Positions 1,087-8,036 of a stretch of DNA of 64,000 nucleotides are shown here, one piece after another. The stretch is from Candidatus Oxydemutatoraceae bacterium. GTDB taxonomy: Bacteria > Pseudomonadota > Gammaproteobacteria > Poriferisulfidales > Oxydemutatoraceae. Position 1 is the stretch's first letter, and each line of letters opens with the position of its first letter. The notes beneath the pieces are model-generated. The model was not told where the DNA came from. It did not search any database and worked only from the letters and a program-made list of their open reading frames with translations. The stretch lies in assembly GCA_965218975.1 (NCBI GenBank), contig OZ244717.1, positions 338,347 to 402,346 on the forward strand. Direction: 5' to 3'. The position numbers and the translations under genes were made by a program.

Positions 1087-3840
1087 ATGAAAGATAGTTT
1101 TGAGAAAGATTTCAAAGAGCTGACAGGATTTCCTCCGTTCAAATGGCAGAAACGCCTTTTCTATGAGCGTTTCGCCAAAGGTGATATTCCTTCTGCGCTC
1201 GACATCCCGACAGGTCTCGGCAAGACTTCGGTGATGGTAATCTGGTATTTGGCCCGGAAGGCCAAAGCTGCATTGCCCCGGCGTTTAGTTTATGTGGTTG
1301 ATAGACGGGCAGTCGTTGATCAGGCGACAACTGTGGCCGATGAAATTAAAAAGAAATCAAAGGACGATACATTGCGGGTGAGCACGCTGCGCGGTCAACA
1401 TGTGGATAATCGGGAATGGCTTGCGGACCCAGTTGCGCCGGCCATTATTGTCGGCACCGTTGATATGATCGGCTCACGGCTGTTGTTCTCGGGTTACGGC
1501 GTATCACGCAAGATGCGCCCCTATCATGCGGGTCTGCTCGGAGCGGATACGCTCGTCGTGCTTGACGAAGCGCATTTGGTTCCACCGTTTGAAAAACTTC
1601 TCGAAAAGATTGCGAAGATTGTGAACGGAGCCAACGTATTCGGTCCGCGCGAGCAAGAGGACCGAAGAATAACGCCGCCCCTCAAGTTGCTTTCGCTGTC
1701 GGCTACAGGACGTGAAAATGATCAAAGCAGAAAAGGAGGATTCTCGCTTCTTCGCGAAGACTGGGAAGATGAAGTTGTTAAGAAGCGTCTGGAAGCACGA
1801 AAACGACTTACGATCCAAGTGCTCAATGATGCAGAAAAGCTGGCACAGGAGCTGGCCGAGCGGGCATGGAAACTTGGAGAGAAGCCGGCACGTGTGCTCG
1901 TTTATTGCGATCGCAGAAAAGATGCTGTGGAAGTAAAGAATAAAATTGATAAGAAGTTTGAGAAAGGAACCCCCGAACCTGTTTCCGAACTTTTGGTCGG
2001 CGGGCGGCGTGTGTTTGAGCGGCAAACGCTTTCTGACTGGTTGAAAGAGTACGGTTTCTTTGGCGATGCCAAAGGATCGCCAAAGCAGCCGACTTTTCTG
2101 ATTGCGACCTCAGCCGGTGAAGTAGGCGTTGATCTTGATGCGGACCACATGGTGTGCGATTTGGTCGAGTGGGAGCGCATGGTGCAGCGCCTTGGCCGTG
2201 TGAATCGGCGCGGCAACGGGGATGCCCGTATTGAGGTCGTTGCCGCGCCCCGCACGGAAAAGCCCAGCAATCAAAAAAAGGCCAAAGAGTGGGAGAAACT
2301 CTTGGCCTGTTTCCGCAAGCCGCTGGACAGCCTGCGTTGTGTCGGCGTACAGGACGAACGGGACGCGAGCCCGGGTGCGCTCCTGGAACTCAAAGAACGC
2401 GCGGAAAATCATTCGGAACTACGAAACGCGATTGAAGCGGCAACAACACCGGTCCCGTTGCGGCCGGCATTGACTCGTGCCCTCGTTGATGCGTGGTCTA
2501 TGACCTCGTTGGACGAGCATACGGGGCGACCGGACGATATTCAGCCGTGGCTGCGCGGATGGGAGGAAGATCCACAACCGCAAACTACGGTTGTCTGGCG
2601 CAAGTATCTGCCGGTACGCGCAAATGGGACCGAGACGGAGGCAACGAAGAAAGAAATTGAAGCATTTTTTGAAGCAGCGCCTCCGCATACGAGCGAGAAA
2701 CTTGAAATCGAGACTGGTAAAATTGTTGGATGGTTTTCCGAACGTGCCGAGAAACAATTCCAAATAAAGAAAACCGTCGACTCGGCGGCAGAACCAAGCG
2801 AATCCGACGACAACTCCATCGCAGATATTCAACCGTTACTGAAGAAAGATATTTGTGCCTATGTCCTGTCGCCTGCTCACGATTTGCTCTCTATACTTAA
2901 AGGGCATGACTGCGATAATAATACGAAGGTTAAAGAATACATTCTTCCCGGTTCCACGCTCATAGTGGACGCGCGCTTTGGTGGTCTTTCAGAAGAAGGG
3001 ATGCTTGCAGAAGAGGGGATGCTTGATGAGAATGCTAGCGGTCCGCCGCGCACGATTGACGACGATGAAAATTGGCTGCCTGACGATGGAGAGGGCAAGC
3101 CAACCATAAGGTTCCGTGTGCGACACGTTACTGGCGTTACTGAAAGTGACAGCACCGAGTCAAAACCAGACTCAGGTTGGCGGGAGCGGCTGAGGTTTGA
3201 TCTTAAACGTAGCGAGGAAGGCGAAGCTACCAAGTGGCTGCTCGTTGAGAAATGGCGCGACGACTCCGAAACCGGGGACGACCGTTCCATAGGTAGGTTG
3301 CAAGAATTGTGTGAGCATCACGCCTGGACGGAAGCCAAGGCGCGTAAAATAGCCAACGCTTTAGATCTGCCTGACTCCCACATTGAATTGCTAGCCGTTG
3401 CGGCACGACTGCACGATAAAGGAAAGCAACACTCATTGTGGCAACGGGCTGCCAAGGCCCCGCAGGACGGTAAAATTTATGCAAAGACGGATAAACGGAT
3501 GAATGTTAATTTGCTGAATAAATATCGTCATGAATTCGGCTCGCTTCCGTTCGCTAAAGAAGATGCAGATTTTAAGGCTTTGCCTGCTGACTTGCAGGAA
3601 CTTTCTCTGCATTTGATCGCGACACATCACGGTTATGCGCGGCCTGTCATTTCTACTAGCGGTTGCGACGACCCTCCTTCTGTTCTTGAAAAACGCGCCC
3701 GCGATGTTGCACTACGATTCGCCCAAATGCAGAAGCGATGGGGGCCTTGGGGATTGGCCTGGTGGGAATCATTGTTGCGCGCCGCAGACCAACAAGCCTC
3801 ACGCGATAATGATGACCCCAATCGAAAGAAGGATAACTAA
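1087..3840 (+). CDS. cas3: Cas3 helicase-nuclease of type I-G/I-U (SF2 helicase N-terminal, HD nuclease C-terminal)
   Basis: 917 aa. Helicase motifs are I 'DIPTGLGKTS', II 'VLDEAH', V 'TSAGEVGVDLD' and VI 'QRLGRVNRRG'. The C-terminal HD domain shows 'LHDKGK' and 'IATHHGY'. The HD-at-C-terminus arrangement is the subtype I-G hallmark. Confidence 0.9.
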   Translation: MKDSFEKDFKELTGFPPFKWQKRLFYERFAKGDIPSALDIPTGLGKTSVMVIWYLARKAKAALPRRLVYVVDRRAVVDQATTVADEIKKKSKDDTLRVSTLRGQHVDNREWLADPVAPAIIVGTVDMIGSRLLFSGYGVSRKMRPYHAGLLGADTLVVLDEAHLVPPFEKLLEKIAKIVNGANVFGPREQEDRRITPPLKLLSLSATGRENDQSRKGGFSLLREDWEDEVVKKRLEARKRLTIQVLNDAEKLAQELAERAWKLGEKPARVLVYCDRRKDAVEVKNKIDKKFEKGTPEPVSELLVGGRRVFERQTLSDWLKEYGFFGDAKGSPKQPTFLIATSAGEVGVDLDADHMVCDLVEWERMVQRLGRVNRRGNGDARIEVVAAPRTEKPSNQKKAKEWEKLLACFRKPLDSLRCVGVQDERDASPGALLELKERAENHSELRNAIEAATTPVPLRPALTRALVDAWSMTSLDEHTGRPDDIQPWLRGWEEDPQPQTTVVWRKYLPVRANGTETEATKKEIEAFFEAAPPHTSEKLEIETGKIVGWFSERAEKQFQIKKTVDSAAEPSESDDNSIADIQPLLKKDICAYVLSPAHDLLSILKGHDCDNNTKVKEYILPGSTLIVDARFGGLSEEGMLAEEGMLDENASGPPRTIDDDENWLPDDGEGKPTIRFRVRHVTGVTESDSTESKPDSGWRERLRFDLKRSEEGEATKWLLVEKWRDDSETGDDRSIGRLQELCEHHAWTEAKARKIANALDLPDSHIELLAVAARLHDKGKQHSLWQRAAKAPQDGKIYAKTDKRMNVNLLNKYRHEFGSLPFAKEDADFKALPADLQELSLHLIATHHGYARPVISTSGCDDPPSVLEKRARDVALRFAQMQKRWGPWGLAWWESLLRAADQQASRDNDDPNRKKDN

Positions 3841-8036: not shown

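What the first reader, a model, noticed from the sequence alone, without database searches (positions are those of the whole stretch)
3840..8036. Atypical type I-G effector gene set: 306-aa gene in the Cas8u slot and an enlarged 741-aa Cas5-Cas6
Cas3 with a C-terminal HD, the Cas4-Cas1 fusion and an 'ATTGAAGC' repeat end argue for I-G. No ~700-aa Csx17/Cas8u2-like gene is present. Instead there is a 306-aa protein of unknown family after cas3. The csb2-like protein is roughly 250 aa longer than usual and carries an N-terminal extension. The large-subunit function may have moved into csb2, or this may be an undescribed I-G variant.
Basis: partly seen in the sequence, partly recalled or inferred. 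Interest (0 to 1): 0.55.

Follow-up and report, generated by a model that had tools for sequence, protein, structure and literature searches.

The report
Ordinary type I-G CRISPR, Cas8g2 form

Summary
The genes are real and the type I-G call is right, but the gene set is not atypical. The 306-aa protein (3840-4760) is Cas8g2, also called GSU0052, Csx14 or Cas8u2. It scores 125.3 bits on TIGR04106 (cut-off 125) and has over 2,200 relatives of about 290-300 aa. This short large subunit was described in 2011, and the G. sulfurreducens system that uses it gives interference in E. coli.

The 741-aa ORF is really a 729-aa Csb2 starting at ATG 5847. Its surplus is C-terminal, not N-terminal. Residues 1-497 cover the whole Csb2 profile. 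Residues 498-729 are a second Cas6-like domain.

Long Csb2 is common. About 135 of the best 150 cluster representatives are 700-770 aa. RefSeq annotates the same layout on a Cereibacter plasmid.

Two things are new here. The extra domain resembles the Cas6 half of Csx17-type Csb2. It is also present in all 49 decidable metagenomic Cas8g2 loci, fused in 42 and on a separate downstream ORF in 7. Its function is untested.

The window also starts inside a second csb2 of the Csx17 type, so a second I-G module probably lies just upstream.

The parts
3..1043 (+). 3' part (346 codons) of a second csb2 gene of the Csx17 type. The ORF runs off the window start. The full product is P0241, 569 aa.
   Evidence: There is no stop codon in this frame from base 3. 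TIGR02165 scores 78 bits on profile positions 220-491. P0241 is 100% identical and comes from a contig of the same length (2,081,000 bases) as the 100%-identical matches to the window's Csb2 and Cas8g2. P0241 scores 387 bits on PADLOC PDLC01778. Relatives sit in cas3g-csx17-cas7-csb2 operons.
1087..3840 (+). cas3g, a helicase with a C-terminal HD nuclease, 917 aa.
   Evidence: TIGR02621 scores 619 bits over profile positions 2-854 of 854. cas3_HD matches residues 746-885.
3840..4760 (+). cas8g2 (GSU0052 / Csx14 / Cas8u2), the short I-G large subunit, 306 aa.
   Evidence: TIGR04106 scores 125.3 bits against a cut-off of 125, E 3.6e-36. PADLOC Cas8g models score 125 and 102 bits. There are 2,211 relatives; nearly all of the 120 best listed are about 290-310 aa, and some are named Csx14, Csb3 or Cas8c. 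The AF2 model has pLDDT 85 and pTM 0.89 with a mixed alpha/beta fold.
4762..5814 (+). cas7g / csb1. The ORF opens at 4714 but the likely start is ATG 4762, giving 350 aa.
   Evidence: TIGR02570 scores 139.6 bits and PF09617 scores 142.7 bits. Homologues align from residue 17 of the ORF.
5847..7337 (+). csb2 core, residues 1-497 of the 729-aa protein. It comprises a Cas5-like N-terminal domain and a type A Cas6-like domain ending in the glycine-rich loop GNGRYLGLGLM. The conserved His469 is at 7251-7253.
   Evidence: TIGR02165 covers profile positions 1-491 of 492, at 314 bits for this part alone. PADLOC PDLC01410 scores 372 bits. H469 and G485-G493 are invariant in 35 sequences.
7338..8036 (+). 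C-terminal extension of csb2, residues 498-729 plus the stop codon. It is a second, type B Cas6-like RAMP domain with the loop GCDSHRGGGLF. His718 is at 7998-8000.
   Evidence: Alone it scores 55 bits on TIGR02165 positions 240-491 and 81 bits on PDLC01778 positions 236-447. BLASTP against the Csx17-type Csb2 C-terminal half gives E 3e-8, against its own middle domain E 0.69. The AF2 model has pLDDT 84, and its best PDB match is Cas6 3i4h, E 5.6e-4, probability 0.99. It is homologous to the stand-alone 258-aa gene in L012, E 1e-14.
8522..10243 (+). cas4g/cas1g fusion, 573 aa.
   Evidence: NF049935 scores 817 bits.
10215..10538 (+). cas2.
   Evidence: TIGR01573 scores 35.5 bits against a cut-off of 24.5.
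10750..15981 (+). CRISPR array of 73 repeats of 36 nt: GTATTCCGTAGCTATATGCTACGGCCTCATTGAAGC.
   Evidence: 72 copies are exact and one has a single mismatch; none are expected by chance. The repeat forms a 7-bp stem with a 5-nt loop followed by CCUC-AUUGAAGC, the same fold and the same 3' 12 nt as the T. sulfidiphilus I-G repeat.

Best explanation
Window 1087-15981 is a complete type I-G (formerly I-U) CRISPR-Cas locus of the Cas8g2 (GSU0052) sub-variant: cas3g, cas8g2, cas7g, csb2, cas4g/cas1g, cas2 and a 73-repeat array.

Expected mechanism, inferred from characterised I-G systems:
- Csb2 cuts the pre-crRNA 4 nt 3' of the 7-bp repeat hairpin. This leaves the 8-nt AUUGAAGC 5' handle, and Csb2 stays on the 3' hairpin.
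- Cas7g polymerises along the guide.
- The short large subunit Cas8g2 completes Cascade, reads the PAM (TTN in G. sulfurreducens) and holds Cas3g, which degrades the target.
- Cas4g/Cas1g and Cas2 acquire spacers.

The extra length of Csb2 is a second Cas6-like RAMP domain fused to the C-terminus of a complete Cas5-Cas6 Csb2. This domain is of the kind found as the only Cas6 domain in Csx17-type Csb2. In Cas8g2-type loci it is usually fused, sometimes encoded as a separate gene just downstream, and absent from a few distant loci.

My best guess for its role is inference only. I think it is a second repeat-RNA-binding module. The catalytic histidine defined in B. animalis Csb2 (H520) appears, by numbering offset, to correspond to His469 in the middle domain. 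The extra domain lacks that segment.
For: Gene identities:
- Every gene hits its I-G model above cut-off, and PADLOC agrees.
- The repeat has the same fold and the same 3' 12 nt as the characterised T. sulfidiphilus I-G repeat.
- Cas8g2/GSU0052 was described as a deteriorated Cas8 in G. sulfurreducens (PMC3150331). The cas3-cas8u2-cas7-cas5/6 set of G. sulfurreducens gives TTN-dependent interference in E. coli (PMC6547450).

The same gene order with long Csb2 is widespread:
- Seven genome loci from Latescibacterota, Alphaproteobacteria, another Pseudomonadota MAG, Verrucomicrobia and Planctomycetota have it.
- The RefSeq-annotated Cereibacter plasmid NZ_CP090026.1 has cas8c of 288 aa and csb2 of 695 aa.
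- L097 has it at 38% identity.
- More than 100 clusters at 55-75% identity are 720-784 aa. About 135 of the best 150 representatives at 50% clustering are 700-770 aa and align end to end.

Nature of the extension:
- It matches the C-terminal half of Csb2 profiles.
- Its predicted fold matches Cas6.
- It has stand-alone homologues after short csb2 in L012, L034/L092, L045 and L078, at 168-214 bits to the C-terminal half of PDLC01778.
- In 49 decidable metagenomic Cas8g2 loci it is fused in 42 and on a separate downstream ORF in 7.

Domain-type motifs and the missing RF...H segment are shown in the MAFFT alignment. The invariant residues are listed.
Against: - The Cas8g2 score sits right at the curated cut-off (125.3 against 125), so this is a divergent branch of the family.
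- The mapping of published catalytic residues (T. sulfidiphilus H503; B. animalis H520 and D530) rests on numbering offsets, not on an alignment. I could not obtain those sequences.
- The extra domain keeps an invariant His718 in its glycine-rich loop and could be catalytic.
- I could not verify the length of G. sulfurreducens GSU0054 itself.
- No expression or activity data exist for this locus.
Confidence: 0.85

Rival explanations
1. One reading: large-subunit function has moved into the enlarged Csb2. In this reading the 306-aa protein is a remnant or an unrelated protein, and the locus is an undescribed I-G variant.
For: - Cas8g2 is less than half the size of Csx17 (306 aa against about 756-759 aa).
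- Its model shows no large Cas11-like helical bundle.
- The extra Csb2 domain is present in all 49 decidable Cas8g2 metagenomic loci.
- All listed Csx17-type Csb2 relatives are 400-588 aa, mostly 543-588, with no 700-aa form.
Against: - The extension is a Cas6-like RAMP domain, not Cas8- or Cas11-like.
- Cas8g2 is strongly conserved, with 53 invariant columns in 37 sequences down to 48% identity. It is always in the large-subunit slot.
- Cas8g2-type loci with a short Csb2 and no extra module nearby exist: L014, and probably L013.
- The variant is already modelled by NCBIfam and PADLOC and annotated in RefSeq.
Confidence: 0.1
2. The C-terminal type B domain is the active pre-crRNA endonuclease, and the middle type A domain is a structural relic. 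The enlarged Csb2 would then be Cas5, a dead Cas6 and a live Cas6.
For: - The type B domain is the only Cas6 domain in Csx17-type Csb2, whose T. sulfidiphilus representative cleaves repeats using a C-terminal histidine, H503 (PMC9638904).
- His718 in the loop DSHxGGGLF is invariant. It aligns with the SH of the Csx17-type loop.
- The repeat is almost the same as the T. sulfidiphilus repeat.
Against: - The middle domain keeps the invariant (W/H)H-V-E-I histidine. This histidine is also kept in the short type A Csb2 proteins examined.
- By numbering offset (+51) that histidine matches the catalytic H520 of the 545-aa B. animalis Csb2.
- The fused domain has lost the RF...H segment that lies before the last hairpin.
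- The position of T. sulfidiphilus H503 in the alignment is unknown.
Confidence: 0.15
3. The locus works as a composite with a Csx17-type I-G module immediately upstream. Csx17 or the second Csb2 would act in trans on the same array, so the visible gene set is only half of the system.
For: - The window starts inside a Csx17-type csb2 that ends 44 nt before cas3g.
- Relatives of that gene lie in cas3g-Fic, csx17, cas7, csb2 operons.
- L064 also pairs a Cas8g2-type short csb2 with a complete Csx17-type csb2.
- The I-G repeats of both types share their 3' end.
Against: - The upstream genes are not visible.
- Apart from the source contig, no contig length is shared between the best 120 relatives of the two Csb2 types. 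The tandem therefore looks specific to this genome.
- The Cas8g2-type set is self-sufficient in many genomes that have no second module.
Confidence: 0.08

Closest known systems
Geobacter sulfurreducens type I-U/I-G system (GSU0051-GSU0054, GSU0057-GSU0058; cas3, cas8u2, cas7, cas5/6, cas4/1, cas2)
   Same: It has the same gene families and order and the same short large-subunit family (TIGR04106 is named after GSU0052). It also has the Cas4-Cas1 fusion. Interference with a TTN PAM was shown in E. coli (PMC6547450).
   Different: The window's Cas8g2 is a divergent member, at 125 bits compared with 258 bits for the L014 protein. Its Csb2 carries an extra C-terminal Cas6-like domain. I could not check whether GSU0054 has that domain.
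Thioalkalivibrio sulfidiphilus type I-G Cascade (Csx17/Cas8g1, Cas7, Csb2, Cas3; PDB 8ANE, 8B2X; PMC9638904)
   Same: The repeat is nearly identical: 36 nt, a 7-bp stem, and a 3' CCUCAUUGAAGC. It has the same Cas3g, Cas7g and Csb2 families. Csb2 is the pre-crRNA nuclease.
   Different: Its large subunit is Csx17, which has a Cas11-like C-terminal domain. The Csx17 homologues seen here are about 756-759 aa. Here the large subunit is the 306-aa Cas8g2, with no detectable similarity to Csx17. Its Csb2 has two domains, whereas this one has three.
Cereibacter azotoformans plasmid p4 locus (NZ_CP090026.1), annotated by NCBI
   Same: The architecture and sizes are the same: cas3u of 861 aa, cas8c of 288 aa, cas7u of 344 aa, csb2 of 695 aa, then cas4/cas1 and cas2. 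Its Csb2 aligns over 99% of the window protein.
   Different: Identity is only 39.5%. It is plasmid-borne, and no second csb2 is adjacent.
Bifidobacterium animalis type I-G (Csb1, Csb2, Csb3)
   Same: The 545-aa Csb2 is a Cas5-Cas6 fusion whose C-terminal Cas6-like domain holds the catalytic H520 and D530 (bioRxiv 10.1101/2022.08.19.504415). By numbering, H520 corresponds to His469 here.
   Different: Its large-subunit slot holds Csb3, and its Csb2 has no third domain.

Membership tests
Type I-G (I-U) CRISPR-Cas | Cas3g helicase with the HD nuclease at the C-terminus | tested here: met
   TIGR02621 scores 619 bits against a cut-off of 400. The HD domain is at residues 746-885 of 917.
Type I-G (I-U) CRISPR-Cas | Csb1/Cas7g and Csb2 (Cas5-Cas6 fusion) effector genes | tested here: met
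   TIGR02570 scores 139.6 bits and TIGR02165 scores 360.5 bits, with full profile coverage.
Type I-G (I-U) CRISPR-Cas | Cas4-Cas1 fusion plus Cas2 next to an array whose repeats end in ATTGAAGC | tested here: met
   NF049935 scores 817 bits and a cas2 hit is present. There are 73 repeats. The hairpin and 3' end are as in T. sulfidiphilus.
Type I-G (I-U) CRISPR-Cas | crRNA-guided, Cas3-dependent DNA interference | not testable with these tools
   This needs an experiment. All genes are intact, and 72 of the 73 repeats are identical.
Cas8g2 (GSU0052 / Csx14 / Cas8u2; TIGR04106) | Score at or above the curated cut-off of the family model | tested here: met
   The score is 125.3 bits against 125, E 3.6e-36, covering profile positions 2-262 of 282. 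This is marginal. It is backed by PADLOC PDLC01375 at 101.6 bits and by relatives named Cas8c, Csx14 or Csb3.
Cas8g2 (GSU0052 / Csx14 / Cas8u2; TIGR04106) | A gene of about 280-320 aa lying between cas3g and cas7g | tested here: met
   This holds in the window and in L001-L007, L009, L011-L014 and L097.
Cas8g1 / Csx17 (TIGR04113) | Match to the Csx17 model, which is about 700 aa | tested here: not met
   The 306-aa protein gives no hit. hhalign of the Cas8g2 alignment against a true Csx17 (L010, 587 bits on TIGR04113) gives E 0.35.
Type I-G Cas3-extension family (NF049934) | Match to the model; a protein of about 300 aa encoded directly after cas3g | tested here: not met
   The position and size fit, but there is no hit. 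hhalign against the L009 member gives E 0.29.
Csb2 (TIGR02165 / PF09609) | Full-length match comprising a Cas5-like N-terminal domain and a Cas6-like C-terminal domain with a glycine-rich loop | tested here: met
   Residues 1-497 cover profile positions 1-491 of 492. The loop is GNGRYLGLGLM. There is a surplus of 232 residues beyond the model.
Cas6-like RAMP (for residues 498-729) | Double ferredoxin/RRM fold with a C-terminal glycine-rich loop | tested here: met
   The AF2 model has pLDDT 84. Foldseek finds Cas6 3i4h at E 5.6e-4 with probability 0.99, and 5yi6, although TM-scores are only about 0.3. The loop is GCDSHRGGGLF.
Cas6-like RAMP (for residues 498-729) | Metal-independent cleavage of repeat RNA through a catalytic histidine | tested here: inconclusive
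   His718 is invariant. The segment that carries the candidate catalytic His in type A domains is missing. Published catalytic residues could not be aligned.

The most novel reading that the evidence does not exclude
In Cas8g2-type I-G systems, Cascade needs two different Cas6-like modules. One is the resident type A domain of Csb2. The other is a type B domain captured from a Csx17-type Csb2. The loci examined show all three stages of this capture:
- a complete second csb2 (L064, and the window's upstream gene)
- a stand-alone gene after csb2 (L012, L034, L045, L078)
- the C-terminal fusion seen here

The captured domain would compensate structurally for the loss of the Cas11-like half of the large subunit, or would hold a second repeat element of the crRNA. 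That would be a subunit arrangement not seen in any solved Cascade.
Probability: 0.25. Interest if true: 0.5.

Novelty: new member of a known kind. Interest (0 to 1): 0.25.

Why it matters
For the scan, this removes a false lead. The locus is a standard Cas8g2-type I-G system that current models and RefSeq annotation already recognise.

There is a modest by-product for CRISPR specialists. Databases label these 700-770-aa proteins simply as Csb2. I found no paper in the searchable library that describes their third domain, its relation to the Cas6 half of Csx17-type Csb2, or its near-constant presence in Cas8g2-type loci. No Cas8g2-type Cascade structure exists in the PDB copy searched.

If the extra domain proves necessary, it would explain how I-G works with a large subunit less than half the size of Csx17. 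It would also matter when choosing the minimal gene set for I-G genome-editing tools.

Tried and rejected
- Finding the source contig by exact protein look-up failed for Cas3, P0001 and Cas8g2. The genes upstream of the window could therefore not be read.
- The genome-contig scan did not contain the source genome.
- The PDB sequence search gave nothing for Csb2 or Cas8g2.
- Foldseek against the PDB gave no significant match for Cas8g2. The best was 7tr6_C, a type I-A Cascade chain, at E 0.12, and I did not identify which subunit that chain is.
- I rejected a relation of Cas8g2 to the NF049934 Cas3-extension family, which is also about 300 aa and also lies after cas3g.
- I rejected the N-terminal extension, because it comes from a TTG start codon.
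- I rejected a frameshift or assembly artefact as the source of the long Csb2, because more than 100 independent full-length homologues exist.
- I tried to learn the length of GSU0054 and the nature of GSU0055/56 from papers and supplements, without success.
- I could not obtain the T. sulfidiphilus or B. animalis Csb2 sequences to place H503 and H520. The supplement holds no protein sequences.
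Full report
**What is in the sequence**

The + strand of window 1-16000 carries a compact cas operon followed by a CRISPR array. NCBIfam assigns every gene:

| Coordinates | Gene | Model and score |
|---|---|---|
| 1087-3840 | Cas3g, HD domain at residues 746-885 of 917 | TIGR02621, 619 bits |
| 3840-4760 | Cas8g2 | TIGR04106 (cas8c_GSU0052), 125.3 bits, cut-off 125, E 3.6e-36 |
| 4714-5814 | Csb1/Cas7g | TIGR02570, 139.6 bits |
| 5811-8036 | Csb2 | TIGR02165, 360.5 bits |
| 8522-10243 | Cas4g/Cas1g fusion | NF049935, 817 bits |
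| 10215-10538 | Cas2 | TIGR01573, 35.5 bits |

- The array runs from 10750 to 15981. It holds 73 copies of GTATTCCGTAGCTATATGCTACGGCCTCATTGAAGC, of which 72 are exact.
- The repeat folds into a 7-bp stem with a 5-nt loop, followed by CCUC and AUUGAAGC.
- That geometry and the last 12 nt are the same as in the biochemically characterised Thioalkalivibrio sulfidiphilus I-G repeat. There, Csb2 cuts 4 nt 3' of the stem and leaves an 8-nt handle (PMC9638904).

**The 306-aa protein**

This protein is not of unknown family.
- Besides the NCBIfam hit, it matches two PADLOC Cas8g models, PDLC00996 at 125 bits and PDLC01375 at 102 bits.
- A search of the 5.8-billion-protein collection finds 2,211 relatives. 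Nearly all of the 120 best listed are about 290-310 aa. Where a source names them, the names are Csx14, Csb3 or type I-U/I-G Cas8c.
- GSU0052 (Csx14, Cas8u2, Cas8g2) has been treated in the literature since 2011 as an apparently deteriorated Cas8 of the Geobacter sulfurreducens system (PMC3150331).
- The G. sulfurreducens set cas3, cas8u2, cas7 and cas5/6 gives TTN-PAM-dependent interference in E. coli (PMC6547450).
- The family is well conserved, with 53 invariant columns across 37 sequences down to 48% identity.
- An AlphaFold model built on that alignment is confident (pLDDT 85, pTM 0.89). It shows a mixed alpha/beta fold without a large helical bundle.
- It is also not a member of NF049934, the "Cas3-extension" family. 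That is another protein of about 300 aa encoded after cas3g in a different I-G layout.

**The 741-aa protein**

- The 741-aa figure comes from a TTG at 5811 that overlaps the cas7 stop codon.
- The database's own product (P0001, 100% identical) and all homologues begin at ATG 5847 with MNRTLLL, giving 729 aa.
- The Csb2 profile starts at residue 4 of that protein, so there is no N-terminal extension.
- Residues 1-497 cover the whole TIGR02165 profile (positions 1-491 of 492). They end in the glycine-rich loop GNGRYLGLGLM.
- The surplus is residues 498-729. Alone, this part matches the C-terminal half of Csb2 profiles: TIGR02165 positions 240-491 at 55 bits, and PADLOC PDLC01778 positions 236-447 at 81 bits.
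- An AlphaFold model of this part (pLDDT 84) has Cas6 as its best PDB matches: 3i4h at E 5.6e-4 with probability 0.99, and 5yi6. TM-scores are low, about 0.3.
- The long Csb2 is therefore Cas5-like, Cas6-like, and a second Cas6-like domain.

**The two Cas6-like domains are of different kinds**

A MAFFT alignment of domains separates two types.
- Type A comprises the middle domain here and the short Csb2 proteins most similar to it. Its motifs are SIGHxHAD, REPF, (W/H)HVEI and G(D/N)GRYLGLGLM.
- Type B comprises the extra domain, certain stand-alone proteins, and the C-terminal half of Csx17-type Csb2. Its motifs are GHE...GxHxH, VWESxTP, RGLPxP and SHxGxGLF.

BLASTP and PADLOC agree with this split.
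- The extra domain hits the Csx17-type Csb2 C-terminal half at E 3e-8, but its own middle domain only at E 0.69.
- PDLC01778 is the best model for Csx17-type Csb2 (P0241, 387 bits). On the window protein, its best stretch falls on the extra domain.

**How common the arrangement is**

- More than 100 clusters at 55-75% identity are 720-784 aa.
- In an exhaustive HMMER scan of 1.84 billion cluster representatives, about 135 of the best 150 are 700-770 aa and align end to end, down to 38% identity. In total, 551 representatives score below E 1e-30.
- The order cas3g, cas8g2 (about 290-320 aa), cas7g, long csb2 recurs in seven genome loci from Latescibacterota, Alphaproteobacteria, another Pseudomonadota MAG, Verrucomicrobia and Planctomycetota.
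- It also recurs in L097.
- On the Cereibacter azotoformans plasmid NZ_CP090026.1, RefSeq annotates cas3u, cas8c (288 aa), cas7u, csb2 (695 aa), cas4/cas1 and cas2.

**Association of the extra module with Cas8g2**

- I scanned metagenome contigs with the Cas8g2 alignment and obtained 80 loci. I then searched their ORFs with HMMs of the Csb2 core and of the extra domain.
- In 49 loci the end of csb2 and its downstream sequence were visible. The extra domain was fused in 42 (35 non-redundant) and lay on a separate ORF just downstream in 7 (5 non-redundant). In 2 more loci csb2 was complete but the contig ended too soon after it to decide.
- Four of those five distinct separate ORFs are stand-alone type B genes or a complete Csx17-type csb2, and match PDLC01778 strongly. 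L034, L045 and L078 score 168-201 bits on its C-terminal half. In L064 a complete Csx17-type Csb2 of 576 aa scores 436 bits.
- The fifth, L039, is a 231-aa ORF in another frame that overlaps the end of csb2. It scores only 53-55 bits on the PADLOC models and may be a frameshifted fusion.
- L012, found separately, shows the split form clearly: csb2 of 519 aa is followed, with a 4-nt overlap, by a 258-aa Cas6-like gene. That gene matches the window's extra domain at E 1e-14 and scores 214 bits on PDLC01778.
- Two more distant Cas8g2 loci have a short Csb2 and no such module nearby: L014, whose Cas8g2 scores 258 bits on TIGR04106, and L013.
- The Csx17-type Csb2 relatives listed are 400-588 aa, mostly 543-588. 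In the three loci checked they sit beside csx17 or its remnant.
- The sample is biased towards relatives of the window protein, at 38-69% identity. The association is strong within this clade but is not shown for all of I-G.

**Which domain cuts the RNA**

This is inference, not a result.
- B. animalis Csb2 is 545 aa, with catalytic H520 and D530.
- The conserved residues that paper lists (Y14, E24, R31, Y236, E410, H520) line up by constant offsets with window residues Y16, E26, R33, Y237, E360 and H469. This puts H520 on the invariant second His of HHVEI in the middle domain.
- That His is kept in all type A domains examined.
- The fused extra domain lacks this segment but keeps an invariant His718 in its loop.
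- T. sulfidiphilus H503 could not be placed, because I could not obtain the sequence.
- I therefore favour a catalytic middle domain and an RNA-binding extra domain, and I keep the reverse as a rival.

**Outside the stated coordinates**

- The window begins inside another csb2. The frame is open from base 3 to 1043.
- Its product is the C-terminal 346 residues of P0241, a 569-aa protein. P0241 comes from a contig of the same length, 2,081,000 bases, as the 100%-identical matches to the window's Csb2 and Cas8g2.
- P0241 is a Csx17-type Csb2.
- Its relatives at 60-70% identity lie in operons of cas3g fused to a Fic domain (1165-1178 aa), csx17 (756-759 aa), cas7 and csb2.
- A second I-G module of the Csx17 type therefore very probably lies immediately upstream, ending 44 nt before cas3g.
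- Apart from the source contig, no contig length is shared between the best 120 relatives of the two Csb2 types. The tandem thus seems specific to this genome.

**Verdict**

The genes and sizes hold, but the start codon, the side of the extension and the "unknown family" statement are wrong.
- The interpretation as an atypical or undescribed I-G set is not supported. This is a new member of a known, already modelled and annotated sub-variant.
- What remains mildly interesting is the nature and distribution of the third Csb2 domain. I did not find it described in the searchable literature.

Noticed in passing
window 3-1043 (+): The window starts inside a second csb2 of the Csx17 type (full product P0241, 569 aa), which ends 44 nt before cas3g. 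A second I-G module is therefore probably adjacent, upstream of the window.
   Followed up: partly
L010:3183-6680, L095:192-3707, L096:173-3709: Cas3g proteins of 1165-1178 aa carry a C-terminal Fic domain in all three Csx17-type loci related to the window's upstream csb2. I did not look into such a Cas3g-Fic fusion further.
   Followed up: no
L009:11431-18094: A different I-G layout: cas7, csb2 (526 aa), cas3g (969 aa), then a 314-aa protein of NF049934, the 'Cas3-extension family'. It lies next to a degraded Cas8g2-type module whose csb2 is cut to 397 aa.
   Followed up: partly
L064:6581-10423: A Cas8g2-type locus with a short csb2 (534-aa ORF), followed by a complete Csx17-type csb2 (576-aa ORF, 436 bits on PDLC01778). 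It is a second case of the two Csb2 types side by side.
   Followed up: partly
L012:8557-9333; L034:10445-11503; L045:10744-11622; L078:7213-8253: Stand-alone Cas6-like genes (type B) lie directly after short csb2 genes. They are the unfused counterparts of the window's C-terminal domain.
   Followed up: yes
window 26656-26951, 27629-27851, 51988-52201, 52322-52457, 54984-55119: Several copies of a 67-110-nt element containing CCAGCCCCGAC.TCCTTGTCG.GTCGTTCGCCGCTGAAAACC...GGTTTTCCGGGCGCG are scattered in intergenic regions. It looks like a dispersed palindromic repeat element.
   Followed up: no
window 52832-54632: A 369-nt unit is repeated 4.9 times at 88% identity inside the ORF at 52746-54761 (671 aa). 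This ORF has no convincing Pfam assignment.
   Followed up: no
window 16011-17826, 27910-29661, 44845-47433, 50089-51810: Three N6/N4 DNA methylase genes, an IS1595-family transposase and a ResIII-type helicase lie downstream of the array. This suggests a defence-island setting.
   Followed up: no
window 8037-8521: A 485-nt AT-rich gap lies between csb2 and cas4/cas1. It holds only a weak 80-aa TTG ORF (8255-8497). In related loci cas4/cas1 follows csb2 within about 30 nt (L003, L004).
   Followed up: no
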